64,000 bases of DNA from the NCBI GenBank assembly GCA_046484745.1, contig JAWOIJ010000053.1, forward strand, positions 45,468 to 109,467, read 5' to 3'. This stretch comes from Desulfobacterales bacterium (GTDB lineage: Bacteria > Desulfobacterota > Desulfobacteria > Desulfobacterales > SURF-7). A program made the translations under genes and the position numbers. Each line of letters begins with the position of its first letter. The stretch's first letter is position 1. Positions 3,349 through 26,893 of the stretch are shown in pieces. Below the pieces are notes generated by a model. That model ran no database searches and was not told where the DNA came from. It saw only the letters and a list, made by a program, of their open reading frames with translations.

Positions 3349-4839
<1,491 letters not shown>

Positions 4840-13562: not shown

Positions 13563-14888
13563 TCAGGCAGACTCCAGATAGTTGGATATGCTGTCTGTAA
13601 TGGTTTCCCAGGTTTTCTTTCTTTTCTCGTCGTCTGTCTCCAGCAGGGTAATTCTGAACCCCTGCCTGGTGCAGCAGAAGCCTGTCAACGGCACGACACA
13701 GATCCCCGTCGCCCCAAGAAGATAATATACAAACCGTTTGTCCGGTTGCACATCCTTGACCTTTTCTTCAATAAACGCTTTTACATTCGGATCCGATATG
13801 GGAAGGGTCTGCCTGTTGTTGAGAACGTTGTTTTCGAACAGAATGGCATTGTAAAACGCCCCGTGGGCCCGGACAACCTGAATGCCTTTTACCCCGGAGA
13901 AAATCTCGTATGCCTCGTTGGCGCGTTTCTCGAAAATTTTTTTCCGCCTTTCCAGATGATCGATGTACCGGGGATCACCCATCACCAGGGGGATGGCATA
14001 CTGGGGCAGGCTGGTGGAGCATACCTCCAGCATTTTGGCATTGGTGATGCTTTGTATATAGTGCCGGAAGATTTGATGCTTGTCCTGGTTGAATATCTCA
14101 AGCCATCCGCAGCGTGCGCCGGGCCAGGGAAATTCTTTGGATATCCCCCGGAGAGCGATTCCCGGAACCTCGTCGCCGATCACTTCGCTCAGATGAACGG
14201 TTTCTGCGCCGTTGAAGACAATATGGGCGTATATCTCATCGCACAGGACAAAAATGCGGTACCGTCTTGCGATATCGATCATCTGCTCCAGAAAGGGTTT
14301 GGGATAGACCGCTCCGGTGGGATTGTCCGGGTTGATCAGGAGCATTCCCGCGATAGAGTCATTGTACTTGATCTTGTTTTCCAGATCTTCCAGGTCCGGC
14401 ATCCAGTTTTTGTCCGGATCGAGGTTATAGGTCAGGTGATCATAGCCGGAATGTGCCGCCTCTGCCGAAGAATGGGTGGAGTAGGCAGGTGACGGACCGA
14501 TCACCCGGGCTTCCCGTTTCAGGTAGGTGAAGATCTTGGCCACCGCATCCCCAAGGCCGTTAAAAAACAGGATGTCATCGGCGGTGATCTGATGGCCGCC
14601 CCGGAGGTTGACCAGTTCTGCCAGGAACTCCCGCGCTTCCATCACTCCCCGGGTATCGGTATAGCCGTAGGTTTTGTCTTCGGCAATAAGCCCTGCAAGG
14701 ATATCCTTGATCCATTTGGGGACCTCTTCCCCCTTCTGGATGGGATCTCCGATATTTTCCCAGATGATTTCCAGGCCGAGTTTTTCAAGTTCCCGGCCCA
14801 CGGCCACAATCTCGCGGATTTCATAGGTGAGCTTGCTCCAGCCCACATGTTCGATGTTTCGTCGGAGGGTGTTTTTTGGCATATCCAC
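13563..14888 (-). CDS. PLP-dependent aminotransferase, class I/II (alanine-aminotransferase-like)
   Basis: 441 aa. NPDNPTG, CDEIYAHIVF and the PLP-lysine context GISKEFPWPGARCGW. Confidence 0.85.
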   Translation of the reverse strand: MDMPKNTLRRNIEHVGWSKLTYEIREIVAVGRELEKLGLEIIWENIGDPIQKGEEVPKWIKDILAGLIAEDKTYGYTDTRGVMEAREFLAELVNLRGGHQITADDILFFNGLGDAVAKIFTYLKREARVIGPSPAYSTHSSAEAAHSGYDHLTYNLDPDKNWMPDLEDLENKIKYNDSIAGMLLINPDNPTGAVYPKPFLEQMIDIARRYRIFVLCDEIYAHIVFNGAETVHLSEVIGDEVPGIALRGISKEFPWPGARCGWLEIFNQDKHQIFRHYIQSITNAKMLEVCSTSLPQYAIPLVMGDPRYIDHLERRKKIFEKRANEAYEIFSGVKGIQVVRAHGAFYNAILFENNVLNNRQTLPISDPNVKAFIEEKVKDVQPDKRFVYYLLGATGICVVPLTGFCCTRQGFRITLLETDDEKRKKTWETITDSISNYLESA

Positions 14889-15263
14889 CTCAGATTAGGT
14901 TAATTTCTTCCAATGTCTTATCAAAGACAATGGTTTATTTCAAAGACAAAAAAGGAAAGCCGGAATATAGATCTGTCAGGTGCAGGTTGCAAGGGAAAAT
15001 TGATGATGGTCTACGTTAAACCAAAAGCTCACGCAAAGGCGCGAAGACGCGAAGATTTCTAATTGATTTTTAAGTCGTTATGGCATACTGGACAATAATA
15101 CCTGATTGCCCTGGCGTGGTTCGACCCAAATGAAACCGTTCAGGGAATAGCCCGTCAATTTACGTCATATGACAACCTTCGCACGCAAAATGGCTGTTTT
15201 ATAAAACGGCTATTAGGACATATAATCATTGTTCGGCAAACAACGATAGGAGCGTGTGCTCAC

Positions 15264-15806
15264 ATGAGAAAAATGAAGATCAGTAAAGCGTTTACGTTGA
15301 TCGAATCTGGTCCAGTTGTTCTTGTTACGACACATGACGGAAAGAAGAACAATATAATGACGATCTCGTGGACCATGGTGGTGGACTTTACGCCGATATT
15401 TGCCATGACCACTGGGCCATGGAACTATTCCTTTGCTGCTCTTCGTAAAACGAAGGAGTGTGTTATTGCATTTCCCACAGTTGACATGCTTGATAAGGTC
15501 GTTGGAGTGGGAACATGTTCCGGCGTTGATACAGACAAATTTGAAAAGTTCATGTTGACCCCCGTGAAGGGAAAGTATGTCAAAGCGCCCTTGATAAAAG
15601 AATGCATGGCGAATATTGAGTGTAAAGTTGTCGACATCGTCAAGAAGCACAATATCGTCGTCCTCGAAGGCGTTGCCGCGTACTTTGATAATTCACGAAA
15701 GGAGAAGCGAACTGTTCACGCAGTTGGCGATGGAACTTTTATAGTGGATGGGCGTAAGTTGGACCGAAAGAAAATGATGCACTCAAAAATCCCAGCTGGT
15801 CTCTAG
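15264..15806 (+). CDS. flavin reductase-like (FMN-binding split-barrel) protein
   Basis: GPVVLVTTHDGKKNNIMTISWTMVVDFTPIFAMTTGPWNYSFAALRKTKECVIAFP is typical of the flavin_reduct domain. 180 aa. Confidence 0.8.
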   Translation: MRKMKISKAFTLIESGPVVLVTTHDGKKNNIMTISWTMVVDFTPIFAMTTGPWNYSFAALRKTKECVIAFPTVDMLDKVVGVGTCSGVDTDKFEKFMLTPVKGKYVKAPLIKECMANIECKVVDIVKKHNIVVLEGVAAYFDNSRKEKRTVHAVGDGTFIVDGRKLDRKKMMHSKIPAGL

Positions 15807-15860
15807 TTTTATAACAGGGAAACTTGTTGGCAAGAGCAAATCATCATTATATTCCCAGGC

Positions 15861-16049
15861 ATGTCCGGCATTTTTCAATATTACGGAGTGTGCGGAATTT
15901 TGAAGGAACTGGACTCGTGGGTGAAACGAAGGCTCCGCTGTTATCTTTGGAAGCAACCGAACCCCCGTGGTACGTGTGATCCGTATGCCCGGTGGTGTAG
16001 GAGGAGAGGGGCTGCGAGGCCTCTCCCTATCCCGATTCTGCTCATTTAA
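15861..16049 (+). pseudogene. group II intron reverse-transcriptase/maturase C-terminal fragment
   Basis: YYGVCGILKELDSWVKRRLRCYLWKQ matches the conserved maturase segment (...ELDxWIRRRLRxxxWKQWK...). No RT domains lie upstream and the ORF ends in an unrelated Arg/Pro-rich tail. Confidence 0.5.
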
Positions 16050-16200
16050 CCTTGACAGTATGTACGGTATGGCGCGTTATTGAAAAATATGAGGTGAACT
16101 ATGCCGACATTATCAGCCACTGAAGCACGATCAAAATTATACCGCTTAATAGATCAAACCGCTTCGTCTCATGAACCAATTGTAATTACAAGCAAAAGAG
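16036..16200. repeat. Copy 1 of a ~165-bp duplication (yefM promoter and first 33 codons)
   Basis: Near-identical to 22240..22405: ttc(t/g)gctcattta..cttgaca..tgtacgg..tgaaaaatatgaggtgaactATGccgacattatcagcc...agcaaaagag, with one silent gat/gac difference in the coding part. Identity stops abruptly at 16200. Confidence 0.9.
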
Positions 16201-16298
16201 CCGAAACGCGCTGTCATTATTGGCAGCGGGTACATTGGCAAAGAAATGGTCGAGGCTCTCCAATGCTCTGGCTGTTCATTTGGAGCATGAAAAATTAA
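16101..16298 (+). pseudogene. truncated Phd/YefM antitoxin fused out of frame to foreign sequence
   Basis: The first 33 aa (MPTLSATEARSKLYRLIDQTASSHEPIVITSKR) are identical to the intact antitoxin at 22306. The remainder is unrelated read-through. Confidence 0.85.
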
Positions 16299-16380
16299 CC
16301 GAAGCGGACATTATCCTGATTGCCGCAGGGCGAGACCCTCTGTAGATTTGGCCGTGAAGACCGGTATCCAACTCGGTTAC
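16203..16380 (+). pseudogene. remnant of an FAD/NAD(P)-dependent pyridine-nucleotide-disulfide oxidoreductase
   Basis: Pieces sit in three shifting frames: KRAVIIGSGYIGKEMVEAL (NAD-binding GxGxxG), HLEHEKLTEADIILIAAGRDP and DLAVKTGIQLG. Stops and frame shifts separate them. Confidence 0.55.
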
Positions 16381-16395
16381 TTACTTTTGATGCTT

Positions 16396-17043
16396 TTACC
16401 TTCCGCCTTGGGACATTTCCGCTCTTGCCCGTTCAATCGCCGTTTCAAGTTCCTTAATGGCATATTTAAGATTGTCGCCGTCGCTGGCCACCCTTCTTGC
16501 GATGGGCGTAATCGCCTCGACCCCCTTGGATGTCAGGTCGTTTGAAAGGTACGTTTGAATTTCTGTGGCATCAGACACATAGGTCCTGAAAGCTTCTTTC
16601 ACGCCGATGCTGTTTAAGGGAATTTTGCCGTATATCTCGGCAAGTTCCATGCGACGTTGTTCACTGAGTTCCTGTATCCGCGGATTTTTGTATTTGCTGC
16701 CTTCCGTTTGCCATTCCTCGAAATAGTCCTTGCCCCGAGCTTTCATTTCATCGGCGTGTTTGGAAAATTTTTTCTCCATTTTCACGATTTTTGAAATATT
16801 GTCCGAATACAGATCAAAGGCCTTTTTCACATCGGATTGCCCCGACCGTGTCAGCTCGTCCAGGGAAGCACCGGCGGCATCGAGCTGTGCGACAATCAAT
16901 TTGATATCGTTGTCCACCGTCTGCATTGTTATCCTTGCTTCTTTTGACCGCTGCATTCCCGTTGTTGCGCAGCCTGCGATACTGATGGCCAAGACCGACA
17001 GCGCTGTAAGAAGGAACGCAACCGATTTGTTTGTTAGTTTCAT
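16396..17043 (-). CDS. lipoprotein, DUF2959-like
   Basis: Signal peptide with lipobox LAISIAGC, then a helical protein with a YFEEWQTEGSKYKNPRIQELSEQRR segment resembling the DUF2959 layout as I recall it. 215 aa. Confidence 0.6.
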   Translation of the reverse strand: MKLTNKSVAFLLTALSVLAISIAGCATTGMQRSKEARITMQTVDNDIKLIVAQLDAAGASLDELTRSGQSDVKKAFDLYSDNISKIVKMEKKFSKHADEMKARGKDYFEEWQTEGSKYKNPRIQELSEQRRMELAEIYGKIPLNSIGVKEAFRTYVSDATEIQTYLSNDLTSKGVEAITPIARRVASDGDNLKYAIKELETAIERARAEMSQGGR

Positions 17044-17376
17044 AGCGCACTCCTGTTTTTAAAATTTTTTTTTGTTTCCGGGCGTTTTATTCATTGGTTA
17101 ATATTAACTCAATTTTTGTGCCGGATTTTTAACATTCAGGATTGCGTATTCTATCATAATGATTTTTATCGATAATACGTTTATAATACATTCGCTGTCC
17201 GACCTCTGATTGCCCTGTAAAAAAGGGTCATATTTACCCTAAGGTCGTATATAATCTTTTTTTCAGGCCTTTTGGGAGTAGTGGGCGGCAGATGGCAAGG
17301 AGGGGTTGCAATTCATAATCGTTTTTTAGCTTCCGGATTGTGTAGAAAGCGGCCAAGACGACTTTGGGGACCGGTG

Positions 17377-17410
17377 AAAAAAATGGGGCGAGGGAAAGTC
17401 CCTCGTCCCA
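17377..17410 (-). terminator. Rho-independent terminator retained behind the IPTL-CTERM remnant
   Basis: On the minus strand gggacgaggga-ctt-tccctcgcccc is followed by attttttt. Confidence 0.7.
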
Positions 17411-17435
17411 TGCGCATGTTCCGGGAGAACTTGTT

Positions 17436-17585
17436 TTAGAAGTCCGCCTTCCTTTTCCTCAGGTAATAAATGGATGTGAGGCCCATAATCGTCATGAAGA
17501 TGATCATTCCCCACTCGAAAAGCGTGGGGATGGAAGTGGGAGAAGCAGCATTGATGACGAGGGTATATTGACTGGCTGGCTCGGC
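17436..17585 (-). pseudogene. 3' remnant of an IPTL-CTERM sorting-domain protein
   Basis: The minus-frame translation AEPASQYTLVINAASPTSIPTLFEWGMIIFMTIMGLTSIYYLRKRKADF* carries the IPTLxEWGM motif, a TM helix and a basic tail. The frame is closed by TGA only 49 codons upstream and has no start codon. Confidence 0.65.
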
Positions 17586-17623
17586 TCACCACGCATATCC
17601 CCAATAAAAGAGAACAGATGGCC

Positions 17624-17783
17624 AGATACTATGGCTACTACAGCAAAAAAATATTAAACCATCTCAATATTCGTGACGTCCACAACCATGGGCCGCGATC
17701 AGTCAGTACCGAAACAACACGCCCAGCTTGTTTATGTTGACGATTATTCGCAGGTCCCACCATACGATTACTGGACCCAGTAA
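17624..17783 (+). mobile_element. C-terminal remnant of an IS91-family-like (Y2/HUH) transposase
   Basis: RYYGYYSKKILNHLNIRDVHNHGPRS... and, after a +1 shift, VYVDDYSQVPPYDYWTQ*. This resembles the RYYGxxSN / ILxHLGLWD / acidic-aromatic tail of these transposases as I recall them. It is internally deleted and frameshifted. Confidence 0.4.
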
Positions 17784-17900
17784 AAAAACACTTGTCGCTT
17801 CATACCGGATGGCTGCGTCCAAAATCCGCGCATTCCGATTAGTGTTTTTAAAGATATTGTTGATATGTTTGTCAAAAGTTGATATTCCGAAGCGGATATT

Positions 17901-19598
17901 ATGAAAACCATGGCCACCCAGCTTTCTTTGCTGCTGCAAATTGATAGACGAAAAAGCAATGTCCGGCTGCTGATAAAATTCTGCCTGCTGCTCTTTTTCT
18001 TTTTTGTCCTTTACAGTGTTCTGTTTCATTTGCTGATGCTTTACGAGGGGCGCCAATACTCATGGATTACCGGTTTTTACTGGACCCTGACCACCATGTC
18101 CACCCTGGGTTTTGGAGATATCACCTTCACCAGCGACATGGGAAAATTGTTTTCAGTGGTGGTGCTTCTCAGCGGCATCATTTTTTTGCTGGTGATGCTG
18201 CCCTTTACCTTTATCCAGTTTTTTTACGCCCCCTGGCTGGAGGAGCAGAACAAGGCCCGGGCGCCGCGGGCAGTATCGGAGGATTTGTCCGGGCATGTGA
18301 TCCTGACTCATTTTGACGCGGTTACCGTAGCCCTGATCCAGAAGCTCGAACAATACGCCATCCGCTATATCATTCTGGTCCCCGATCTTCAGTCAGCCTT
18401 GAACTTACACGACCAGGGTTACCAGGTGGTATTCGGCGATCCGGATGACCCCCAGACCTATCACCGCCTTAATATCGATAAGGCAGCTATGGTAGTCGTC
18501 CTGAACGACGACATCGTCAGTACCAATATCATTTATACCATCCGGGAAACGAATGCCGGCGTGGTCACCGTGACCAATGCCGACAAGGAGGAATCTCTGG
18601 ATATTCTGGAGCTGGCAGGCAGCACACATGTCCTGCAACTGACCCGGATGCTGGGCCGGGCCCTGGCCCGTCGCGTGCATGGCGTCAGCATGGCCGCCAA
18701 TGTCATCGGCCGGTTTGATGAATTGCTGATTGCCGAGGCATCGGCCATGCGGACCTGGCTGGAGGGGAAAACGCTGGTCGAAAGCCGGCTGCGTCAGGTT
18801 GCCGGAGTAACGGTGGTGGGCCTCTGGGAACAGGGCCGGTTCATGATTCCCGGGCCCTCTTCCCGAATCGGAGAGTCAACCGTGCTGGTGCTGGCCGGGA
18901 CCAAGGCGCAACTGGATCAGTTTGACGACTCCATCGCCGGCAACCGGAGAGAGAATCCGAACAAAGGGCCGGTGGTCGTGCTCGGTGGCGGTCGTGTTGG
19001 CTTGGCGGTAGCCGATACCTTGCGGAGCCGGGGGATCGATTTCCGGGTCGTGGAGAAAAGGCCCGATATCGCGGCACATCATCCCCAGTTTATTGAAGGC
19101 AGCGCCGCGGATCTGGAAACGCTCAACAAGGCGGGCATTCATGAAACCGCCGCGGTGATCATCACCACGCATGATGACAACCTGAATATTTACCTGACCA
19201 TCTATATCCGCCAGCTCCGGCCGGATGTGCAGATCATCAGCCGGTCCAGCCTGGACCGCAACATCAATACCCTGCACCGGGCCGGCGCTAATCTGGTCAT
19301 GTCGTTCAGTTCTCTGCTGACCGCCACCATTTTGAATCTGCTGCAGCCGCAAAAGGTGCTGATGCTTTCCGAAGGACTTAATGTGTTTCGAACCGCCCTG
19401 AGTTCAAGGCTGACCAATAAGGCCTTGCGCGACTTCCCGATTCGTGAAGAAACGGGTTGCAGTGTTGTCGCCGTTAAACGAGGGGAGTCGCTGATTATTA
19501 ACCCGGACCCCGCCATCGTCCTTGAGCATGGAGACGAACTCCTGCTGATCGGATCGACGGATTCCGAAAAAAAATTCTTGGAGAACTATTCAGGTTAA
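17901..19598 (+). CDS. potassium channel protein with tandem RCK/TrkA domains
   Basis: Two TM helices flank the pore signature TMSTLGFGDITF (TLGFGD at 18102..18119). Two Rossmann-like RCK-N domains (VVLGGGRVG) and TrkA-C segments follow. The start could be an internal Met. Confidence 0.85.
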   Translation: MKTMATQLSLLLQIDRRKSNVRLLIKFCLLLFFFFVLYSVLFHLLMLYEGRQYSWITGFYWTLTTMSTLGFGDITFTSDMGKLFSVVVLLSGIIFLLVMLPFTFIQFFYAPWLEEQNKARAPRAVSEDLSGHVILTHFDAVTVALIQKLEQYAIRYIILVPDLQSALNLHDQGYQVVFGDPDDPQTYHRLNIDKAAMVVVLNDDIVSTNIIYTIRETNAGVVTVTNADKEESLDILELAGSTHVLQLTRMLGRALARRVHGVSMAANVIGRFDELLIAEASAMRTWLEGKTLVESRLRQVAGVTVVGLWEQGRFMIPGPSSRIGESTVLVLAGTKAQLDQFDDSIAGNRRENPNKGPVVVLGGGRVGLAVADTLRSRGIDFRVVEKRPDIAAHHPQFIEGSAADLETLNKAGIHETAAVIITTHDDNLNIYLTIYIRQLRPDVQIISRSSLDRNINTLHRAGANLVMSFSSLLTATILNLLQPQKVLMLSEGLNVFRTALSSRLTNKALRDFPIREETGCSVVAVKRGESLIINPDPAIVLEHGDELLLIGSTDSEKKFLENYSG

Positions 19599-19795
19599 AT
19601 GATCCAGACCGTAAAGTCCTGGCCGCTGTGGATCACCTTCTCGCTCACGCTTCCGATGAAAAATTCCTGAATCCGGGAGACTTCTTTGCGGCCAAGCACG
19701 ATCGCCCCGAAATCACCGTCCTCCGCTTCCCGGACAATTGCTTCCGAGCGGCTGTCAACGCCGCTGAGAATCTTTTCGGAAATACTCTCTGATCT
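19595..19795 (-). pseudogene. C-terminal remnant of a universal stress protein (UspA family)
   Basis: The minus-frame translation ...KILSGVDSRSEAIVREAEDGDFGAIVLGRKEVSRIQEFFIGSVSEKVIHSGQDFTVWII* matches the USP C-terminal half (G-x2-G-x9-GSVS). No start codon. It overlaps the GntR 3' end and the K+ channel stop. Confidence 0.55.
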
Positions 19796-20525
19796 TTCCC
19801 TGATACTGCAGCAGCAGCAGGCCGTATTTATTCAGCTCATCGAGGGTTTTCGCGAGACCGCCTCCGGAGAATTCATTCAGCAGCAAAATTTTGTAATCGA
19901 TGTGTTTTTTCAGATCATCGCCTGTGATCGCGTTGTAGATTATTTCGAGCATCCTCCGGCGAAGCGGTCGTGATGAATTGAAGAGAAGTATGATTATGAG
20001 GTTTTTCGTGGCCCTGGCCAGATAGTCCTGCTGAGCCAGTTCGAGATGTATGATTTTATCCATATCCCCGATATGATCTTTCTCCTGCGCGATCATGTTT
20101 ATCAGGATTTTGATATCCCTGGGGGATGTTTTTTTCGCGGCCATTTTGATGATCTCCGGCAGCACCGCTGTCCAGAACTCCCACAATTCATCAAACAGGT
20201 ATCGATCGATTTCAATATGGGAGTTCTCTTTTTCATGTGAAAGGGCGAGGATTCTCAGAAAATCAAGGCCGGCGTTATCAAGATAATCCCTGACATAAAT
20301 TCCGTCCCCCTGCCTTATTTCAAGCAGCTGCATGGATTCAATCTGCTTCAGTGCTACCCTCAGACTGGTGCGGTCAACTCCCAGTTCCTCTGAGAGCTTC
20401 ACTTCTGTCGGCAGCTTTGTTCCAGCCTCAAGCTTTCCGGTAAATATACTGTTCAGGATATGGCTGACCACTTTTTCATGGCGCTGAGCGGGTTTCTTCT
20501 GAGTTTTTCCATCGTTTTGATTCAT
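19755..20525 (-). CDS. GntR-family transcriptional regulator (FadR/FCD subfamily)
   Basis: wHTH LPTEVKLSEELGVDRTSLRVALKQIESMQLLEIRQGDGIYV plus a helical FCD-like C-domain. ATG 20525 has a GGAGG SD; the track start 20633 is upstream. Confidence 0.85.
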   Translation of the reverse strand: MNQNDGKTQKKPAQRHEKVVSHILNSIFTGKLEAGTKLPTEVKLSEELGVDRTSLRVALKQIESMQLLEIRQGDGIYVRDYLDNAGLDFLRILALSHEKENSHIEIDRYLFDELWEFWTAVLPEIIKMAAKKTSPRDIKILINMIAQEKDHIGDMDKIIHLELAQQDYLARATKNLIIILLFNSSRPLRRRMLEIIYNAITGDDLKKHIDYKILLLNEFSGGGLAKTLDELNKYGLLLLQYQGKIREYFRKDSQRR

Positions 20526-20675
20526 ACTGCCGGCCTCCAGCCCGTTATATATGAGATTATTTCGGGAATTTCCTTCATTTTGAAATGATTCTGTGATGAT
20601 GAAAAACTTACCACAGGGATCAGATTCATCCAATATTTATTCATCGAATTTTTTTTAAAGTTTTTTTAATTTCAG

Positions 20676-20704
20676 TTGACAAAGTTTAATTTATTTATTA
20701 GATT
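20676..20704 (+). promoter_or_regulatory. sigma70-like promoter in the GntR/MBL divergent region
   Basis: TTGACA (20676-20681), 17 nt, TAGATT. The surrounding AT-rich spacer has ttgacaa...ttgtcaa inverted repeats (20676 / ~20741) that could be the GntR operator. Confidence 0.4.
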
Positions 20705-20770
20705 GATTAAACTAATTATGCATATTGATATAATTAATTGTCAAGAAAATAATTCATGCGAGGTGAACTT

Positions 20771-21976
20771 ATGGCATTCCAGGGAGCTATTAAAGGACAC
20801 TTTCCGACTAAAGAGATCAACGAATCGAAAGTAATGGAGATCGCAGATGATATCTGGATGATCGAGGGCTATGTCTCAGACAGTTTTATCTTCAAGCCTC
20901 CCTCATCCAACTGTTTTATATTGAGAGACAACGATATGGTGCTGTTAATCGATACAGGGACATATCCCCATTACCGTGAAAAACTTCTGAAAATTCTTGA
21001 AAAATACAGGAAGACGGGAGCGAAGAAGCTCGTTCTCATGCTCACCCAGGGACATTTCGACCATGTCTGCAATAACGATATCATCCTCGAAGCTGGATAT
21101 GACGAGGTTCGTTTTTTTCTGCCCGAAGATGAAGTTGACACCTTTGATCTCTATAACCACTGGACAGGTGAATACAGGGAGGTCATGGATTATTACAATC
21201 CCTACAGAGAGATGACCTTCGCGTTTCCTACCGCGATGGTCAATATGGCCAGCAGGGTTTCGATGAATTTTACACAGCGGATGGTGGACAGAAGCATCGC
21301 CTCCCTTTTCAGGGGCATACGGACCATGTCTGAAAGTGTTGAAATTTTATCCAACACCGGCAGGGTAACGGTAAAATTCGGCGATGTGGAATTTATAGGC
21401 TGGGAAATCGGAAGATTTTTCGCTATCCATGATGCCACCCACAGCCCCGGTCATCTTTCATTTTACGATCCGAAACATAAAGTGTTCATCACGGGTGACG
21501 CTACGCTTGAGATTAATCCGCCGTTTTTCAACAGCAGCCTGAACAATTGCATTTCAATGATGAAAAAATTTAAGCGGTTCGCTGAGCTGGGTTATGTAAA
21601 AACCGCCACCGACTCCCACCGCAGTATCATGAACGCGACGCGTCTGATGGAGGCCGCCGGTCGGGAACCTCTGCACCGGCTCCAGGTGGTGAATACCATC
21701 GAAGGTAGTGACTGCGCGCAGTTTTACGCGTTTTTTGAAGAGTACTACACGGTATTAAGAAATGAGGTGCTTGCAGCCCTGAAACGGCGAAGAAACGCCA
21801 CGGTGCACCAGATCATTCAGGAACTGAAGGCCTCGAAAGAACCCTATATGCAGTTCAAGGTTTTTATCAGATTTCCAAAACTGCCGTCGCGGCTGGAAAT
21901 CCTCGTGGCAAATGTGCTGAAGGAGCAGAACATCCCCAGACGCAGAGAGGGGAACAAAATTATTTTTTCATTATGA
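20771..21976 (+). CDS. MBL-fold metallo-hydrolase family protein
   Basis: The beta-lactamase-fold motif region LMLTQGHFDHVCNND (QGHFDH at 21047..21064) has the first His of HxHxDH replaced by Gln. Later ATHSPGH and TGDA. SD GAGGTG precedes ATG 20771. Confidence 0.75.
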   Translation: MAFQGAIKGHFPTKEINESKVMEIADDIWMIEGYVSDSFIFKPPSSNCFILRDNDMVLLIDTGTYPHYREKLLKILEKYRKTGAKKLVLMLTQGHFDHVCNNDIILEAGYDEVRFFLPEDEVDTFDLYNHWTGEYREVMDYYNPYREMTFAFPTAMVNMASRVSMNFTQRMVDRSIASLFRGIRTMSESVEILSNTGRVTVKFGDVEFIGWEIGRFFAIHDATHSPGHLSFYDPKHKVFITGDATLEINPPFFNSSLNNCISMMKKFKRFAELGYVKTATDSHRSIMNATRLMEAAGREPLHRLQVVNTIEGSDCAQFYAFFEEYYTVLRNEVLAALKRRRNATVHQIIQELKASKEPYMQFKVFIRFPKLPSRLEILVANVLKEQNIPRRREGNKIIFSL

Positions 21977-22043
21977 GAGATGCCGCCCTCAGAGCGGTTA
22001 TATATGCTGTTCGTACAATAATCCGCGAAAGGAGGAAAGTGTA

Positions 22044-22232
22044 ATGCCAAACAGCATCCATATCCATCCGGCTGCCGGAAGTTCAGCGAAAAAATCAGGA
22101 GCCGATATCTGTGCTGAAATTCTAACGGGCTGCGGGATCGAATTGTTTTTCATTGAAGAGCACCGGCAGACCGAAAAGCTTAAGCAGGCCCTCGAGCTCA
22201 GAATCTTTAACCGGTTTATACAGACTGTATAA
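22044..22232 (+). CDS. small ORF (62 aa), possibly the N-terminal fragment of a larger enzyme
   Basis: Strong SD AAAGGAGGA 8 nt upstream. SGADICAEILTGCGIELFF weakly recalls the N-terminus of ThDP-dependent enzymes. The ORF ends inside a perfect 10-bp palindrome. Confidence 0.35.
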   Translation: MPNSIHIHPAAGSSAKKSGADICAEILTGCGIELFFIEEHRQTEKLKQALELRIFNRFIQTV

Positions 22233-22239
22233 ACATTGT

Positions 22240-22405
22240 TCGGCTCATTTAATCTTGACAATCTGTACGGCATGGCGTACGCTATTGAAAAATATGAGGT
22301 GAACTATGCCGACATTATCAGCCACTGAAGCACGATCAAAATTATACCGCTTAATAGACCAAACCGCTTCGTCTCATGAACCAATTGTAATTACAAGCAA
22401 AAGAG
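22240..22405. repeat. Copy 2 (intact context) of the ~165-bp yefM promoter/5' duplication
   Basis: See copy 1 at 16036..16200. Confidence 0.9.
22255..22283 (+). promoter_or_regulatory. yefM-yoeB promoter with overlapping palindromic operator candidate
   Basis: TTGACA (22255-22260), 17 nt, TACGCT. The spacer contains gtacggcatggcgtac (22265..22280), a 16-bp palindrome with 2 mismatches built on GTAC half-sites. Confidence 0.5.
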
Positions 22406-22548
22406 GTAATGCTGTTCTTTTGTCCGAAGAGGATTGGCGGGCAATCCAAGAGACAATGTATCTTTTGAATATTCCTGGTATGCGTGAGTCTATACGCGAA
22501 GGTTTAGAGATACCTGTTGAAGATTGCAAAGAGGAGCTGGATTGGTAA
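22306..22548 (+). CDS. yefM: type II antitoxin, Phd/YefM family
   Basis: MPTLSATEARSKLYRLIDQ...EPIVITSKRGNAVLLSEEDWRAIQETMYLL. 80 aa. SD GAGGTGA. Overlaps the toxin gene. Confidence 0.92.
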   Translation: MPTLSATEARSKLYRLIDQTASSHEPIVITSKRGNAVLLSEEDWRAIQETMYLLNIPGMRESIREGLEIPVEDCKEELDW

Positions 22549-22808
22549 ATTATAAGGTTGTGTTTACAAAACAAGCTCAAAAAGACGCGAAAAAATTATC
22601 CGCCTCTGGCCTCAAGGCAAATGCCGAGCAATTAATAGAAATTCTACGAGACAATCCTTATCAGACACCACCTTTCTACGAAAAACTTGTCGGGGATCTA
22701 TTTGGTGCTTATTCCTGCCGTATTAATATCCAGCATCGGTTGGTTTATGAAGTGATAGAGAATGAAAAAATAGTGAAAGTCATCCGAATGTGGACTCATT
22801 ATGAATAG
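22542..22808 (+). CDS. yoeB: type II toxin, Txe/YoeB family mRNA interferase
   Basis: NYKVVFTKQAQKDAKKL...NPYQTPPFYEKLVGDLFGAYSCRINIQHRLVYEV..EKIVKVIRMWTHYE. Start is either TTG 22542 or ATG 22524 (the track start). Confidence 0.9.
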   Translation: MVNYKVVFTKQAQKDAKKLSASGLKANAEQLIEILRDNPYQTPPFYEKLVGDLFGAYSCRINIQHRLVYEVIENEKIVKVIRMWTHYE

Positions 22809-22812
22809 CTGA

Positions 22813-22870
22813 GCAGAACAATGCCTTTCAGTCCGACTCGCTTCGCTCGCGGCTGAAGGCCACGTTAGCG
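22813..22870 (+). other. attC-like (integron cassette recombination site-like) imperfect palindrome
   Basis: gcagAACaatgcctttcagtccgac-tcgcttcgctcgc-ggctgaaggccacGTTagcg. AAC/GTT outer boxes, paired inner boxes with an unpaired base, GC-rich centre, 58 nt, 4 nt after the yoeB stop. Confidence 0.5.
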
Positions 22871-22919
22871 CAACAGCATCTCATTTAATTAAAGAAGGAA
22901 TAATAACTGGAGAGAAATT

Positions 22920-23246
22920 GTGAATAAATCTGACGAGGATAAAATCATTGACATATGTCGCAAAAGCGATGTTTCCATGATTGGAATTTTTGGATCCACG
23001 GCTAGAGGCGAGGCCACTGCATCAAGTGATATAGACCTTCTAATAAAGCTGTCCAAGCCGAAGAGTCTTCTCGCACTGGTAAAGCTTGAACGAAATCTTT
23101 CAGAAGCTATCGGAAAAAAAGCCGAAGAAGCCGGAATCCTCAGCCGGGCGCAGCAATGTACCCGCCAGATGATCGGAAATCGCTTTTCCGGCGGTATGGA
23201 CATAGAAGAAAAAGGACAGATTTATTGTTGCCTGGCAATCGCATGA
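22920..23246 (+). CDS. nucleotidyltransferase-domain (MNT-type) protein with a non-canonical C-terminus
   Basis: GTG start. GIFGSTARGEATASSDIDLLIK is the Pol-beta NTase motif (GS...DxD). After LSEAIGKK (A7 run at 23114..23120) the sequence no longer resembles the family. No HEPN/DUF86 partner follows. Confidence 0.7.
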   Translation: MNKSDEDKIIDICRKSDVSMIGIFGSTARGEATASSDIDLLIKLSKPKSLLALVKLERNLSEAIGKKAEEAGILSRAQQCTRQMIGNRFSGGMDIEEKGQIYCCLAIA

Positions 23247-23319
23247 AGATGGATTGCAATCCCGCCAGGCTCCATCACAGTCTCTTATACGAAACATTGA
23301 CGATCAAGGTAGATCCCTT

Positions 23320-23871
23320 ATGAATTTGCAGGTGCGCAAGGCACTCGCTTCAGACAGGCGTGCAATTTCGGATGTCGTCATTGCAGCATTCGGTGACGTG
23401 CAGGGGCAAGAAATCTCTGATTTAATTGTCGATTTACTGGAAGATCCGAGTGCGCACCCTGTGTCATCGTTTGTTGTGACTGCGGAGGATACGGTTGTTG
23501 GGCATATTCTATTCACACGTGCAAGGCTCAGACATTCTCAGCGAACTGTTTCTTCCACTATCCTTGCCCCTTTATCGGTACATCCGGAATATCAACATCA
23601 GGGTATCGGGGGGCAGCTTATTCAAGAAGGCCTGAACGAGTTGAAGGCAGCGGGTTTCGAACTGGTATTTGTGCTCGGCCATCCCGGCTATTACCCAAAG
23701 TATGGCTTTTCCGCTGCCGGGATTAAGGGATTTGATGCGCCGTACCCGATCCCGCCTGAGAATTCTGATGCCTGGATGGTTCAGGAACTTCATCCAGGGA
23801 TTATCGGCTGCGTCAGTGGTCAGGTAGTATGCGCCGATGCGCTCAATGATCCGAAGCATTGGCGAGAGTAA
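23320..23871 (+). CDS. GNAT-family N-acetyltransferase (COG3153-like)
   Basis: VHPEYQHQGIGGQLIQEGLNELKAAGFELVFVLGHPGYYPKYGF is the acetyl-CoA binding Q/RxxGxG/A motif with the family's typical tail. ATG 23320 (MNLQVRKA...). Confidence 0.85.
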   Translation: MNLQVRKALASDRRAISDVVIAAFGDVQGQEISDLIVDLLEDPSAHPVSSFVVTAEDTVVGHILFTRARLRHSQRTVSSTILAPLSVHPEYQHQGIGGQLIQEGLNELKAAGFELVFVLGHPGYYPKYGFSAAGIKGFDAPYPIPPENSDAWMVQELHPGIIGCVSGQVVCADALNDPKHWRE

Positions 23872-23970
23872 AAACGGGCGTATAATTGCATCCTGTGGAC
23901 TCAAGATTCGGATTTTAAGGATATACCGGATGTCAACCTGCCGGTCTTTAACATATAAAGGGTTCGAACA

Positions 23971-25500
23971 ATGGTAAAGAAAGCATCCGATCCAAAAAAG
24001 GATCTGCTGAAAGAACTGGATGAATTGCGCCGCCGGAAGAAAGAAATGGATGCGTTTCAAAAGCGTTGCCAGCAGGCGGAAGACGCTTTGCAGGCAATTG
24101 AAGAGAAAAACCGGGTATTGGGTGATAGTGCGCCGTTCGGCATCTTCACCATTGACCTGAAAGGGCGCATCACCGGCCTGAACCGCAAAACGCGGGAGAT
24201 GCTCCCGTGGCCTGAAAGTCAACCTCCCGAATCAATAAACATTTTTGAATTTCAGCCCTTGATTGATTCAGGAGTCAGTGATGATATCCGTCGCTGCCGG
24301 CAGACCGGAAAATCCATGATTCGCGATTATTCCTGCATCAACGATAATGGAAGTTGCCTGGAATTACGCTTTTACATAAGCCCTGTTGTCGATTCCACGG
24401 GTGACGTGTCCGGTGTCATGGCGTTTGTGGAGAACTTTACCAATTTGAAACTGGCTCAGGCAGCTGCCGTGGAAAGCGAAAAGCGCTATCACCTGTTATT
24501 CAAGTCAGCGCCCATTGCCATGATGGAACGGGATGCCTCTGAACTAAAAACCCATATTGAAGAGCTTCGTCAATCCGGTGTTTCCGATCTAAACCATTAC
24601 CTGCGGCAGCATCCCGAAGAAGTGCCGCATTGTATGTCACTCATTAAAACCGTTGACTGCAATGACGCGTTTTATGAACTGCTGGAGATAGAGGAGAAGA
24701 ACGTTCTGCGGTCGGGAATTCCTTTGATCGCGCTGGGCAGCGAATTTCAGCAGATGGCGAAAGAGATTATTCTGATGCTGGATCAGGGAACGATTCAACG
24801 GGAAAGAGAACAGACGATTTACACACTGACAGGAAAAGAGAAAAGTGTCCTTGTCCGAGCCCTGATTCTTGCAGGCCATGAAGAAACGTTCTCGCGGGTT
24901 GTAATTTCCCTGGTGGATATTACCAAACGCAAGCAAGCCGAAGAGACATTGCGAGCCAGTGAAAAAAGATTTCGTGAGCAGTCCCTTCGTGATAATTTGA
25001 CCTCCCTGTATAATCGGCGCTTTCTTTACCAGTCTCTGGCTGATCTGATCGAAACCGCCAGACACAATCAAACCCAGGTTTCCCTTCTCTTTATGGACAT
25101 GGACAACTTCAAGCAGGTTGTGGATACACACGGCCATTTAAACGGCAGCTATGCGATTCAGGAAGTCGCAAGCACCATCAAAAGCACTCTCGAATCACCG
25201 GCTTATGCCGTAGCCTACGCAGGCGACGAATTTGTCGTGGTTCTGCCGGGCCTGGACCAGCATCAGGCCGCAAGCAAGGCATCACAAATTCAATCTCAAA
25301 TTCAAGCGACAGATTATCTGCTAAGCAGAGGTGAATCGATACAGCTTCAAGCCAGCTGCGGCGTAGCCACTTTTCCCGAACATGCCTCCGACGTGGATTC
25401 GCTTTTATCCGCAGCAGATCACGCCTTGTTCTCCATCAAAAAAATCGGCAAAGGCGCCATCGGTTATTACAGAAACATCGATATTGTTTCCGATGTATAA
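23971..25500 (+). CDS. PAS-domain sensor protein with a GGDEF domain (motif AGDEF)
   Basis: N-terminal coiled coil and two PAS-like segments, then RDNLTSLYNRRFL...LFMDMDNFKQVVDTHGHLNGS...AYAGDEFVVVL. The signature pentapeptide reads AGDEF (25219..25233). Confidence 0.85.
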   Translation: MVKKASDPKKDLLKELDELRRRKKEMDAFQKRCQQAEDALQAIEEKNRVLGDSAPFGIFTIDLKGRITGLNRKTREMLPWPESQPPESINIFEFQPLIDSGVSDDIRRCRQTGKSMIRDYSCINDNGSCLELRFYISPVVDSTGDVSGVMAFVENFTNLKLAQAAAVESEKRYHLLFKSAPIAMMERDASELKTHIEELRQSGVSDLNHYLRQHPEEVPHCMSLIKTVDCNDAFYELLEIEEKNVLRSGIPLIALGSEFQQMAKEIILMLDQGTIQREREQTIYTLTGKEKSVLVRALILAGHEETFSRVVISLVDITKRKQAEETLRASEKRFREQSLRDNLTSLYNRRFLYQSLADLIETARHNQTQVSLLFMDMDNFKQVVDTHGHLNGSYAIQEVASTIKSTLESPAYAVAYAGDEFVVVLPGLDQHQAASKASQIQSQIQATDYLLSRGESIQLQASCGVATFPEHASDVDSLLSAADHALFSIKKIGKGAIGYYRNIDIVSDV

Positions 25501-25579
25501 AGTGCCTTTGAAAGAGCGGGTCCCTGTCCACGTGGTGAAACGATAATGTAATGAAAACAAGAAGGTGAGCAAACTCAAC

Positions 25580-26893
25580 ATGCGAATGAAATGGATTCGA
25601 TTGATCGTTCTACTGATTCCGGTGTTCTTCTGGTCGGTTCAGACCGGGACGGCGGAAATCAGACTCAGCCTTGACGATTGCATTGAAACCGCTCTGAAAA
25701 ATCAGCCGAGCATTCGTGCGGCCCAGGCAGATCTGTCAGCCGGCAAGGGCCGTGAAAAGCAGGCTGTCTCCCGCTATCTGCCCCGGATTACGGCAAGCAC
25801 GGGTTACTCGGAGGCGCATCAGGATGGCAGTGCCCTTGGGGAAACCGTTACCAAGAGCTACAGCACATCGCTGTCCCTCAATCAAACCATTTATGACTTC
25901 GGCCGGACCGGTAACGCCTATGATTCAGCTTGCCTGAGTACACGATCGGCGGAGTTGGAAGCGGAGCGGGTAAAGCAGGACGTGATCTTCAATGTGAAGC
26001 AGGCCTATTTTGATTTGCTCCAGGCTCAAAAACTTGTCATTCTCGCTCAAAAAACACTGGAACAGTCTGAAAGCCGTCTCAAACAGGCCGAAGCGTTCTA
26101 TCGGACCGGTTCCAAACCCATATTTGACGTAACCCGGGCCGAAGTAGAAGTGAACAGCATGCGGCTCGATCTTATCAACGCTGACAATCGTATGCGAATC
26201 AGCGGTATGACCTTGAACAACACCATGGGTGTCGATCCGGAAGGCCGAATCGAGATCGATGACAGCCTGACAATCTGGCCGGCCATCCCTTCCCTGGAAA
26301 AGATCAAGGCCGAGGCCATTGAAAATCGTCCGGATCTGCGTAAGGCTGAATCGGACATCGCGGCCATGGCAGCGCGCGTTCGGTCGGAAGAAGCGAATCA
26401 TCGCCCGGCTATTGCTCTCAACGGCAGCTATAACTGGGCGAACGGTACAACCGAAATGGGAATTTTCAAAGGGGATATTGAAAACAGCTGGAATGCGGGG
26501 ATCGCTCTTTCCATTCCCCTTTACGAAGGAGGTCTCACCTCCGGGAAGGTGAACGAGGCGAAATCAAACCTTCAGTCGCTCGAGGCGCAACGGGACACAC
26601 TCCGCCAGGCCATTATGGTCGACATAAGCAGATATTACGCGGATATGGAAAGCGCACGGGTCCGTATCGGGGTGATGGAGCGTTTTCTTCAAAAAGCAAC
26701 GGAAAATTTCGCCATTGCCCAGGGCCGATATGAGGAAGGCGTCGGGCTTTACATCGATGTGACGGATGCGCAGGTTTCATCGGTAAAGGCAGAGACGGAT
26801 TATGTACAGTCCCTGTATGATTTCCAGCTTGCTGCGGCGAGGCTTCTGAAGGCAATGGGAAAAGGGGAGCAACTACAAGGAATGGTGGAATGA
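25580..26893 (+). CDS. TolC-family outer-membrane efflux protein
   Basis: Signal peptide, then two OEP repeats (LSLDDCIETALKNQPSIRAAQ...; ...LEAQRD...). The track GTG 25565 is an alternative start. Confidence 0.88.
   Translation: MRMKWIRLIVLLIPVFFWSVQTGTAEIRLSLDDCIETALKNQPSIRAAQADLSAGKGREKQAVSRYLPRITASTGYSEAHQDGSALGETVTKSYSTSLSLNQTIYDFGRTGNAYDSACLSTRSAELEAERVKQDVIFNVKQAYFDLLQAQKLVILAQKTLEQSESRLKQAEAFYRTGSKPIFDVTRAEVEVNSMRLDLINADNRMRISGMTLNNTMGVDPEGRIEIDDSLTIWPAIPSLEKIKAEAIENRPDLRKAESDIAAMAARVRSEEANHRPAIALNGSYNWANGTTEMGIFKGDIENSWNAGIALSIPLYEGGLTSGKVNEAKSNLQSLEAQRDTLRQAIMVDISRYYADMESARVRIGVMERFLQKATENFAIAQGRYEEGVGLYIDVTDAQVSSVKAETDYVQSLYDFQLAAARLLKAMGKGEQLQGMVE

What the first reader, a model, noticed from the sequence alone, without database searches (positions are those of the whole stretch)
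22813..22870. attC-like recombination site after yoeB in a cassette-like run (TA, MNT, GNAT) with no integrase in view
**Seen:** four nt after the yoeB stop lies gcagAACaatgcctttcagtccgac tcgcttcgctcgc ggctgaaggccacGTTagcg (58 nt). It has outer AAC...GTT boxes, inner complementary boxes gcctttcag / ctgaaggc with one unpaired base, and a GC-rich variable centre.

**Established:** integron attC sites are 55-140-nt imperfect palindromes with R'' (RYYYAAC) and R' (GTTRRRY) boxes and extrahelical bases. Cassettes in sedentary chromosomal integrons typically encode toxin-antitoxin pairs, acetyltransferases and small unknowns. As I recall it, the layout also closely resembles the classic aadA-type attC (..AACAA..CAAGCCGAC..GC-rich..GGCTT..GCGTTAG..).

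**Inference:** the compact, same-strand, promoter-poor genes here (yefM-yoeB, MNT, GNAT) may be relics of an integron cassette array or a CALIN-type element.

**Caveats:** the R boxes are degenerate (GCAGAAC, GTTAGCG), I found only one convincing site, and there is no intI.
Basis: partly seen in the sequence, partly recalled or inferred. Interest (0 to 1): 0.6.

Follow-up and report, generated by a model that had tools for sequence, protein, structure and literature searches.

The report
Lone integron attC after toxin-antitoxin cassette
The 58-base hairpin after yoeB is a genuine integron cassette recombination site (attC) left in a decayed chromosomal integron of a Desulfobacterales genome; it is a well-supported but ordinary example of a known kind of element.

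Summary
The sequence is as described. It starts four bases after the yoeB stop, at 22813-22870 on the + strand.

I built a covariance model from 20 attC sites that lie next to full-length integron integrase genes in related genomes. None of those sites is homologous to this one.
- The model hits this site and nothing else in the 64-kb window (33.5 bits, E about 1e-5).
- As a control, it finds exactly the aadA1 attC in 50 kb of plasmid R100 (52.8 bits).
- It finds nothing in 80 kb of other DNA.

Comparative evidence agrees:
- A same-genus genome carries yoeB plus this site, and its homology to the window stops exactly at GTT.
- The same yefM-yoeB pair is a cassette between two strong attC sites in another genus.
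- The same attC body follows unrelated genes in attC arrays of Anaerolineaceae, Latescibacterota and Desulfobulbaceae genomes.

The cassette's left boundary is a hairpin ending in GTT. Elsewhere in this genome that hairpin directly follows 3' fragments of intI. Downstream lie a truncated MNT gene, a GNAT gene whose relatives are cassettes, and a vapC remnant.

The locus is a decayed integron that formally counts as a SALIN. I found no intact intI in the assembly. This scan had not noted this attC on other DNA.

The parts
22813..22870 (+). attC site of the yefM-yoeB cassette. R'' is GCAGAAC (AAC at 22817-22819). L'' is GCCTT-T-CAG-T-CCG-A-C. The loop is about 11-14 nt. L' is CGGCTGAAGGC. R' is GTTAGCG (GTT at 22864-22866), with the crossover expected between G22864 and T22865.
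   Evidence: R2 33.5 bits, the only hit in the window; homology break at GTT against G002:C58; the same body in 7 other genomes; covariation at 2 stem pairs.
22239..22864 (+). The yefM-yoeB gene cassette, crossover to crossover (626 nt). It starts TTCGGC and ends at the G of R'. It has a -35-like TTGACA and a GTAC-rich palindrome upstream of yefM.
   Evidence: The left boundary is shared with own-genome loci C26 and C60 and with the duplicate at 16036. The right boundary is shared with G002:C58. An 82%-identical cassette lies between two attC sites in G006:C33.
22306..22548 (+). yefM antitoxin gene (80 aa)
   Evidence: Pfam PhdYeFM_antitox, 71.3 bits
22524..22808 (+). yoeB / ParE-RelE superfamily toxin gene; the true start is probably a few codons inside this ORF.
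   Evidence: Pfam ParE_toxin 37.8 bits and YoeB_toxin 32.4 bits
22203..22240 (+). Left junction element, ATCTTTAACCGGTTTATACAGACTGTATAAACATTGTT. Its first 8 nt match the last codons and stop of intI fragments elsewhere in the genome. A 9-bp perfect hairpin follows, then CATTG|TT. It is an attI-like or mini-attC recombination junction.
   Evidence: 98-100% identical to C26(-)4497-4538, C60(+)14002-14039 and C78(-)2536-2567, each straight after a 3' intI fragment. Sequences diverge after GTT. R2 scores it at noise level (7.6 bits).
22044..22232 (+). Chimeric 62-aa ORF. An N-terminal stub of an unrelated gene runs into the intI-end/hairpin sequence, which marks the deletion that removed intI.
   Evidence: No Pfam match. 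Homology to the intI-end loci begins only at 22203.
22920..23119 (+). 5' two-thirds of an MNT-type nucleotidyltransferase gene, cut after ..EAIGKK. The HEPN partner and any attC are missing.
   Evidence: Pfam Polbeta / NTP_transf_2 cover residues 8-67 only. A 79%-identical full MNT-HEPN pair lies in G034:C65, and homology ends at 23119.
23320..23871 (+). GNAT acetyltransferase gene, a cassette-type gene that has lost its attC.
   Evidence: Pfam Acetyltransf_9/7/1. Relatives at 54-56% aa identity in G021:C27 and G027:C429 are directly followed by attC sites of 30.6 and 41.7 bits.
23874..23936 (+). 3' remnant of a vapC (PIN) toxin gene, starting two bases after the GNAT stop.
   Evidence: 95% identical to the end of an intact vapBC pair upstream of the same diguanylate cyclase gene in G002:C8. 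G002 has a further ~255 bp with an attC-like sequence that is deleted here.
16036..16200 (+). Second copy of the first 165 nt of the cassette. It begins exactly at the TT of the crossover (TTCTGCTCATTT..) and abuts a group II intron maturase-like fragment.
   Evidence: 95% identity to 22239-22405; boundary read; ORF 15807-16049.

Best explanation
Positions 22813-22870 are the attC recombination site of a yefM-yoeB toxin-antitoxin gene cassette.

Mechanism, inferred from established integron biology: the bottom strand folds into an imperfect hairpin. This hairpin has an AAC/GTT R box, an unpaired spacer, an L stem with extrahelical bases, and a small loop. An integron integrase cleaves it between the bases that read G|TT on the top strand. 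The 626-nt cassette (22239-22864) can thereby be excised as a circle or inserted.

The cassette sits first in a decayed chromosomal integron whose integrase gene pointed the same way as the cassettes. Only the last few bases of intI and the junction hairpin (22203-22240) survive. The cassettes after the attC are eroded: a truncated MNT gene, a GNAT gene without an attC, and a vapC stub. No intact intI is in the assembly, so the site is probably dormant unless an integrase is supplied in trans.

The TA pair has what looks like its own promoter, read by eye, so it could be expressed without the integron promoter. That it stabilises this stretch is an inference from what is known of TA cassettes in sedentary integrons.
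For: Shown here:
1. Covariance model R2 was built from 20 attC sites in arrays beside full-length TIGR02249 integrases in related genomes. It gives 33.5 bits and E 1.2e-5 on the + strand, the only hit in 64 kb. As a positive control it finds only the aadA1 attC in 50 kb of R100, at 52.8 bits. It finds nothing in 80.7 kb of other DNA.
2. The site's geometry matches the clade's attC sites. An extra base sits 9 nt after AAC, and the conserved GAC has a bulged A about 16-17 nt after AAC. All bulges lie on the R''-L'' arm.
3. G002:C58 (same genus) has yoeB plus this site at 95% identity, and homology stops at GTT.
4. G006:C33 has the TA pair at 82% identity between attC sites of 44.3 and 49.1 bits.
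5. The same attC body follows unrelated ORFs in 7 genomes from several phyla, inside multi-attC arrays in 3 of them. Two stem pairs show compensatory changes.
6. The left boundary G|TT is shared with loci that follow intI fragments. Co-directional attC sites lie downstream of two other such fragments, C78 and C52.
7. A co-directional intI, TA cassette and attC array exists in G028:C19. This layout is known from Treponema (PMC3607928).
8. The flanking genes are cassette relics.
Against: - Only one attC is detectable at this locus.
- The fold is not more stable than shuffled sequence.
- The extrahelical bases are T, A, A rather than the textbook G and T.
- The intI trace is only 8 nt plus a hairpin. 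My model does not score the hairpin as an attC (7.6 bits), and it does not look like known attI sites.
- IntegronFinder's own model was not run.
- Homology among TA cassettes of different genera ends at the AAC of R'', not at G|TT. The attC body therefore has a separate history that the standard exchange does not explain.
- No recombination activity has been tested.
Confidence: 0.85

Rival explanations
1. The attC is genuine, but the cassette arrived alone by integrase-mediated insertion into a non-classical genomic site (attC x attG). It would then be a true SALIN, not the remains of an array that decayed in place.
For: Only one attC is found at the locus. Loot et al. show that such insertions are frequent and that SALINs outnumber CALINs (bioRxiv 10.1101/2022.09.11.507474). 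The hairpin with GTT could have served as a secondary target.
Against: The DNA on both sides is itself integron-derived.
- The left junction follows intI fragments at four other loci, with a different cassette after the same G|TT.
- The right side carries a truncated MNT gene, a GNAT whose relatives are cassettes, and a vapC stub. At the same chromosomal place in G002, intact vapBC is followed by an attC-like sequence.
Confidence: 0.1
2. The site is an ordinary transcription terminator, a repeated extragenic palindrome, or a chance hairpin after yoeB, unrelated to integrons.
For: It lies just after a stop codon. Its fold energy is no better than shuffled sequence. Rfam has no match.
Against: - There is no T-run, and the terminator scan makes no call.
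- No other copy exists in the genome, so it is not a REP-type repeat.
- The attC model gives E 1.2e-5 with strand specificity.
- Homology breaks exactly at GTT.
- The identical body lies in attC arrays of other phyla.
Confidence: 0.03

Closest known systems
attC (59-base element) of the aadA1 cassette, class 1 integron In2 of plasmid R100
   Same: Both are about 58-60 nt long. Both have the AACAAT start, the ..CCGAC box with a bulged A, a GC-rich centre, GCGGCT, and ..CGTTAG at the end. They share 42 of 61 aligned positions. Both are hit by the same model over its full length.
   Different: The R boxes are GCAGAAC / GTTAGCG, not the RYYYAAC / GTTRRRY consensus. The bulged bases are T, A, A on the bottom strand. 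The setting is chromosomal and sedentary in a sulfate-reducer lineage. The cargo is a toxin-antitoxin pair, not a resistance gene.
SALIN / CALIN elements (attC sites lacking an integron integrase; Cury et al. 2016, PMC4889954; Loot et al., bioRxiv 10.1101/2022.09.11.507474)
   Same: An attC-bearing cassette with no integrase gene nearby, in a genome that also has other attC clusters.
   Different: A recognisable trace of the platform survives next to it (the intI end plus junction). Cury et al. found intI pseudogenes near only 15 of 279 CALINs. That trace, with the cassette relics on both sides, favours decay in place over de novo insertion.
Toxin-antitoxin cassettes of sedentary chromosomal integrons (Vibrio super-integron type)
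   Same: A type II TA pair with what looks like its own promoter, packaged as a cassette with an attC in a chromosomal array.
   Different: Here the TA cassette is first after the junction. The same is true at two sister loci of this genome (higBA) and in G028:C19 (Phd-ParE). A stabilising role was not tested here.
Treponema-type integrons with intI transcribed towards attI and the cassettes (PMC3607928)
   Same: The integrase remnant and the cassettes point the same way, and the recombination junction lies just past the 3' end of intI.
   Different: Most related genomes I examined have the usual divergent layout. The junction here is a perfect hairpin that overlaps the intI stop codon. No intact copy of this integrase is available.

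Membership tests
integron attC site | Conserved triplets AAC (R'') and GTT (R') at the two ends | tested here: met
   AAC at 22817-22819 and GTT at 22864-22866, aligned to the model's R boxes.
integron attC site | Imperfect inverted repeat L''/L' separated from the R boxes by an unpaired spacer, with a variable centre; total length about 50-150 nt | tested here: met
   58 nt. The spacers are AAT and CAC. The stem is GCCTT-CAG-CCG / CGG-CTG-AAGGC. The loop is 11-14 nt.
integron attC site | Extrahelical bases on the R''-L'' arm of the folded bottom strand, which give strand choice | tested here: met
   The bottom-strand minimum-energy fold has three single-base bulges (T, A, A), all on that arm. 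Their positions match 20 reference sites: an extra base at +9 and the A of GAC at about +16/17. The textbook G is replaced by A.
integron attC site | Significant score against an attC covariance model | tested here: met
   My model R2 gives 33.5 bits and E 1.2e-5, with controls. The IntegronFinder model was not available, so that exact test was not run.
integron attC site | Cassette boundaries fall at G|TT, and R'' is complementary to the R' formed when the cassette is circular | tested here: met
   Homology to G002 ends at GTT. The cassette starts at TT after CATTG. GCAGAAC against GTTCGGC matches at 6 of 7 positions, and G006 and G021 start with TTCTGC, a 7 of 7 match.
integron attC site | Recombined by an integron integrase as a single-stranded folded substrate | not testable with these tools
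   Needs an in vivo or in vitro recombination assay.
complete integron | intI gene with the IntI-specific domain next to the attC sites | tested here: not met
   TIGR02249 has no match in the window. The own genome holds only fragments. Only 8 nt of an intI end remain, at 22203-22210.
CALIN (IntegronFinder default) | At least two attC sites clustered without an integrase | tested here: not met
   There is one attC in the window. The rest of contig C93 has four more, but about 60 kb away on the other strand. The locus fits SALIN.
intrinsic terminator | GC-rich stem followed by a T-run | tested here: not met
   No call at the site in the scan. The tail reads AGCGCAACAGC.

The most novel reading that the evidence does not exclude
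This lineage may have an integron type in which the primary insertion site is a perfect hairpin that overlaps the intI stop codon. It would be a folded, attC-like site in place of a duplex attI. The integrase is co-directional with the cassettes, and a toxin-antitoxin cassette is regularly first.

Five loci of this genome carry the hairpin after intI fragments cut at different points. Three of them have different TA cassettes joined at the same G|TT.

Related to this, the attC body and the gene part of the cassette have separate histories that break at the AAC of R''. This hints at exchange at the inverse core as well as at G|TT.
Probability: 0.25. Interest if true: 0.55.

Novelty: new member of a known kind. 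Interest (0 to 1): 0.3.

Why it matters
The finding documents, with base-level boundaries, how a chromosomal integron decays into a single surviving cassette. It gives a case where a lone attC can be traced to a former platform rather than to a stray insertion; both origins are under discussion for SALINs.

It also shows one attC type shared between Desulfobacterota, Chloroflexota and Latescibacterota genomes, which points to cassette traffic across phyla in anoxic sediments.

For annotation, the site should be labelled attC. The 62-aa ORF and the 108-aa MNT ORF should be treated as deletion artefacts.

Tried and rejected
- **Rfam**, at gathering and at permissive thresholds, found nothing at the site.
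- **BLAST of the site against the own genome** and against plasmids gave no informative matches, so it is not a repeated element.
- **A crude AAC..GTT plus stem scanner** gave many palindromic false positives. I used it only to harvest candidates.
- **MAFFT alignments of attC sites** were structurally inconsistent. I bootstrapped model R1 from trimmed sites, with one N padding column in five rows, and then rebuilt R2 from natural sequences only.
- **The whole-genome run of R2 through the genome search** scored only 150 of 736 candidates and did not list the candidate. The genome-wide attC list is therefore incomplete.
- **A second attC near the MNT or GNAT genes:** none above noise.
- **Reading the site on the minus strand:** rejected. 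The bulges would then lie on the wrong arm, and the homology to G002 runs through the whole site to GTT.
- **A group II intron RNA next to the duplicated cassette start:** no Rfam match.
- **An empty-site comparison:** synteny upstream of the diguanylate cyclase gene is not kept in other genera, so none could be made.

Full report
**Observation.** The 58-nt sequence is present as described at 22813-22870 on the + strand. It starts four bases after the yoeB stop (TAG at 22806-22808). AAC is at 22817-22819 and GTT at 22864-22866. Pfam confirms the neighbouring genes:
- yefM at 22306-22548;
- a YoeB/ParE-type toxin, ending at 22808;
- an MNT-type nucleotidyltransferase whose match covers only residues 8-67;
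- a GNAT at 23320-23871;
- a metallo-beta-lactamase-fold gene upstream and a PAS-GGDEF gene downstream.

Folding alone does not single the site out. The energy is -9 kcal/mol, with z = -0.4 on the top strand and -0.2 on the bottom strand. The predicted bottom-strand fold does have the attC layout. It shows an AAC/GTT helix, unpaired spacers, an L stem and three single-base bulges (T, A, A). All the bulges lie on the arm next to R''.

**Is it more than chance?** Rfam has nothing here. The IntegronFinder model was not available, so I built my own.
- The own genome and 13 of 30 relatives have matches to the NCBIfam integron integrase model TIGR02249 above its cut-off.
- Beside full-length integrases in G014, G021, G015, G019 and G029 lie arrays of AAC..GTT palindromes on the expected strand.
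- These sites share a fixed geometry. An extra base lies about 9 nt after AAC. A conserved GAC has a bulged A about 16-17 nt after AAC. The candidate shares both features.
- MAFFT could not align the sites consistently. I therefore bootstrapped model R1 from ten trimmed sites, collected natural sites with it, and rebuilt model R2 from 20 natural sites. None of them is homologous to the candidate.

| Test | Result |
|---|---|
| R1 on the window | 22813-22870 (+), 20.9 bits, E 0.022; only hit |
| R2 on the window plus three loci | 33.5 bits, E 1.2e-5; full model length; only hit in the window |
| R2, filters off, 15000-26000 | next best below 10 bits |
| R2 on 50 kb of plasmid R100 | one hit: the aadA1 attC, 52.8 bits |
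| R2 on 80.7 kb of other DNA | no hit at E <= 1 |

The candidate shares 42 of 61 aligned positions with the aadA1 attC. Shuffles give 32.7 +/- 2.6, with a maximum of 41 in 2000. The terminator scan makes no call at the site. The site has no other copy in the genome.

**Comparative evidence for a cassette boundary.**
- *Same genus.* G002 contig C58 is labelled an uncultured Desulfobacterales MAG. It carries yoeB and this site at 95% identity. The two sequences part exactly after GTT: window ..GGCCACGTT|AGCGCAAC against G002 ..GGCCATCGTT|GAGGTTTC.
- *Another genus.* In G006, the yefM-yoeB pair (82% nucleotide identity) sits between attC sites of 44.3 and 49.1 bits, inside an array of at least four.
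- *R-box complementarity.* The cassette starts G|TTCTGC in G006 and G021, and G|TTCGGC in the window. These are the reverse complement of its own R'' (GCAGAAC), exact in the first case and with one mismatch in the second. That is expected once a cassette is circularised. It explains why R'' and the adjacent R' look poorly matched in the linear array.
- *Other phyla.* A pattern search over one genome per species found the same attC body (CAGTCCGACTCGCTTCGCTCGCGGCTG) behind unrelated ORFs in seven genomes. These include Anaerolineaceae, Latescibacterota and Desulfobulbaceae MAGs. In three of them it lies in arrays of 3 to 10 attC sites, on the array's strand.
- *Covariation.* Across the eight copies, 95.8% of the proposed pairs are formed, against 19-41% when the partner columns are slid. 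Two stem positions show compensatory changes.

**The left boundary and the missing integrase.** Positions 22203-22240 read ATCTTTAACCGGTTTATACAGACTGTATAAACATTGTT.
- The stretch recurs at 98-100% identity at own-genome loci C26, C60 and C78, and as a one-mismatch copy of the hairpin at C52.
- At all four loci it directly follows a 3' fragment of an integron integrase gene, ending ..TTMIYTHVLNKG.LGVRSPVDDL*. The stop codon lies in the TTTAAC.
- The integrase fragments are cut at five different 5' points. In the window only 8 nt remain, fused to the stub of another gene. This produces the spurious 62-aa ORF.
- After CATTG|TT the loci diverge: yefM-yoeB in the window, and two different higBA pairs in C26 and C60.
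- The internal duplicate of the cassette start at 16036 also begins exactly at TT.
- Downstream of the fragments in C78 and C52 lie co-directional attC sites.
- A relative, G028:C19, shows the intact version of this layout. Its intI is followed in the same direction by a Phd-ParE cassette and at least seven attC sites. The co-directional layout is documented for Treponema (PMC3607928).
- Most relatives have the usual divergent layout, and so do two other loci of this genome, C29 and C39.
- tblastn with a full-length IntI finds only fragments in this assembly. The assembly is 95% complete in 107 contigs.

What the hairpin is remains open. It could be an attI, a mini-attC or a terminator used as a secondary site. 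My model does not score it as an attC (7.6 bits). It was not found in the 30 related genomes searched.

**The right side.**
- After G|TT the next unit starts TTAGCG and encodes an MNT gene. Its homology to a full MNT-HEPN pair in G034 ends at 23119.
- About 200 nt of unassigned sequence follows, then the GNAT gene.
- GNAT relatives (52-56% aa identity) occur only in four genomes of other families. In two of them an attC follows directly, at 30.6 and 41.7 bits.
- Two bases after the GNAT stop begins a 63-nt remnant of a vapC gene.
- In G002 an intact vapBC pair (PIN and MazE-type) with an attC-like sequence lies at the same place, upstream of the orthologous diguanylate cyclase gene. About 255 bp present in G002 are deleted in the window.

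The stretch 21977-23970 is therefore a worn-down cassette array in which one attC survives.

**Genome context.** R2 finds more than 20 other attC sites in the stretches of the own genome that I fetched. They include three beside the internally deleted intI on C29. Four lie on the minus strand at C93:2937-6979, about 60 kb from the candidate on the same contig. The rest of contig C93 has none.

**Mechanism and status.** Integron attC sites act as folded bottom strands. The integrase cleaves them at the position that reads G|TT on the top strand (Cury et al. 2016; Loot et al.). From this established biology I infer that the site once allowed excision and insertion of the 626-nt TA cassette. Whether it is still active is unknown, because no intact integrase is assembled. 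Under current naming it is a SALIN. The relics on both sides favour decay in place over stray insertion at a genomic site.

**Unexplained.** The TA cassettes of different genera are alike up to and including R''. The attC bodies after AAC are unrelated, yet the window's attC body is nearly identical in distant phyla. Gene part and attC body therefore have separate histories, with a break at the inverse core. Exchange at G|TT alone does not predict that.

**Verdict.** This is a new member of a known kind, of modest interest. The open questions are the hairpin junction and the break at R''.

Noticed in passing
window 22203-22240; own genome C26:4497-4538(-), C60:14002-14039(+), C78:2536-2567(-), C52:41311-41342(-): A perfect hairpin, GGTTTATACAGNCTGTATAAAC, directly follows five 3' intI fragments of different length. 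Three loci continue CATTG|TT plus a TA cassette and two continue CCGGAAA... . C78 has a second hairpin copy about 130 nt further on, ending TATTGGTTATGC. The hairpin was not found in 30 related genomes.
   Followed up: partly
own genome, (C15:102855-103547, C29:4999-5451, C26, C27, C39, C78, C105): Every integron integrase copy in the assembly is a fragment or carries an internal deletion, yet the genome holds more than 20 attC sites. It looks like a graveyard of integrons, unless an intact copy is unassembled.
   Followed up: partly
G000:C93:2937-6979 (same contig, about 40 kb before the window start): Four attC sites lie on the minus strand (16.8-35 bits). This is a CALIN on the same contig.
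   Followed up: no
window 22817-22819 compared with G006:C33, G016:C29, G021:C31: Homology among the yefM-yoeB cassettes ends at the AAC of R''. The attC body after it differs, or is absent, in the other genera.
   Followed up: partly
window 15807-16049 and 16036-16380: A group II intron maturase-like fragment (..WVKRRLRCYLWKQ..) abuts the duplicated cassette start, which begins at the TT of the crossover. No intron RNA match was found in Rfam. Group IIC introns are known to target attC sites.
   Followed up: partly
L066 = G001:C130:1-1060: In a same-genus genome, an intI 3' part is followed directly and co-directionally by a lexA gene.
   Followed up: no
G002:C8 about 36176-35921 (locus L019, reverse strand): An attC-like sequence (AAATTCAGCCGAC..GGCTGATTT) follows vapC but lacks the AAC and GTT triplets. 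This ~255-bp stretch is deleted in the window between two GGATGT/GCATGT repeats.
   Followed up: no
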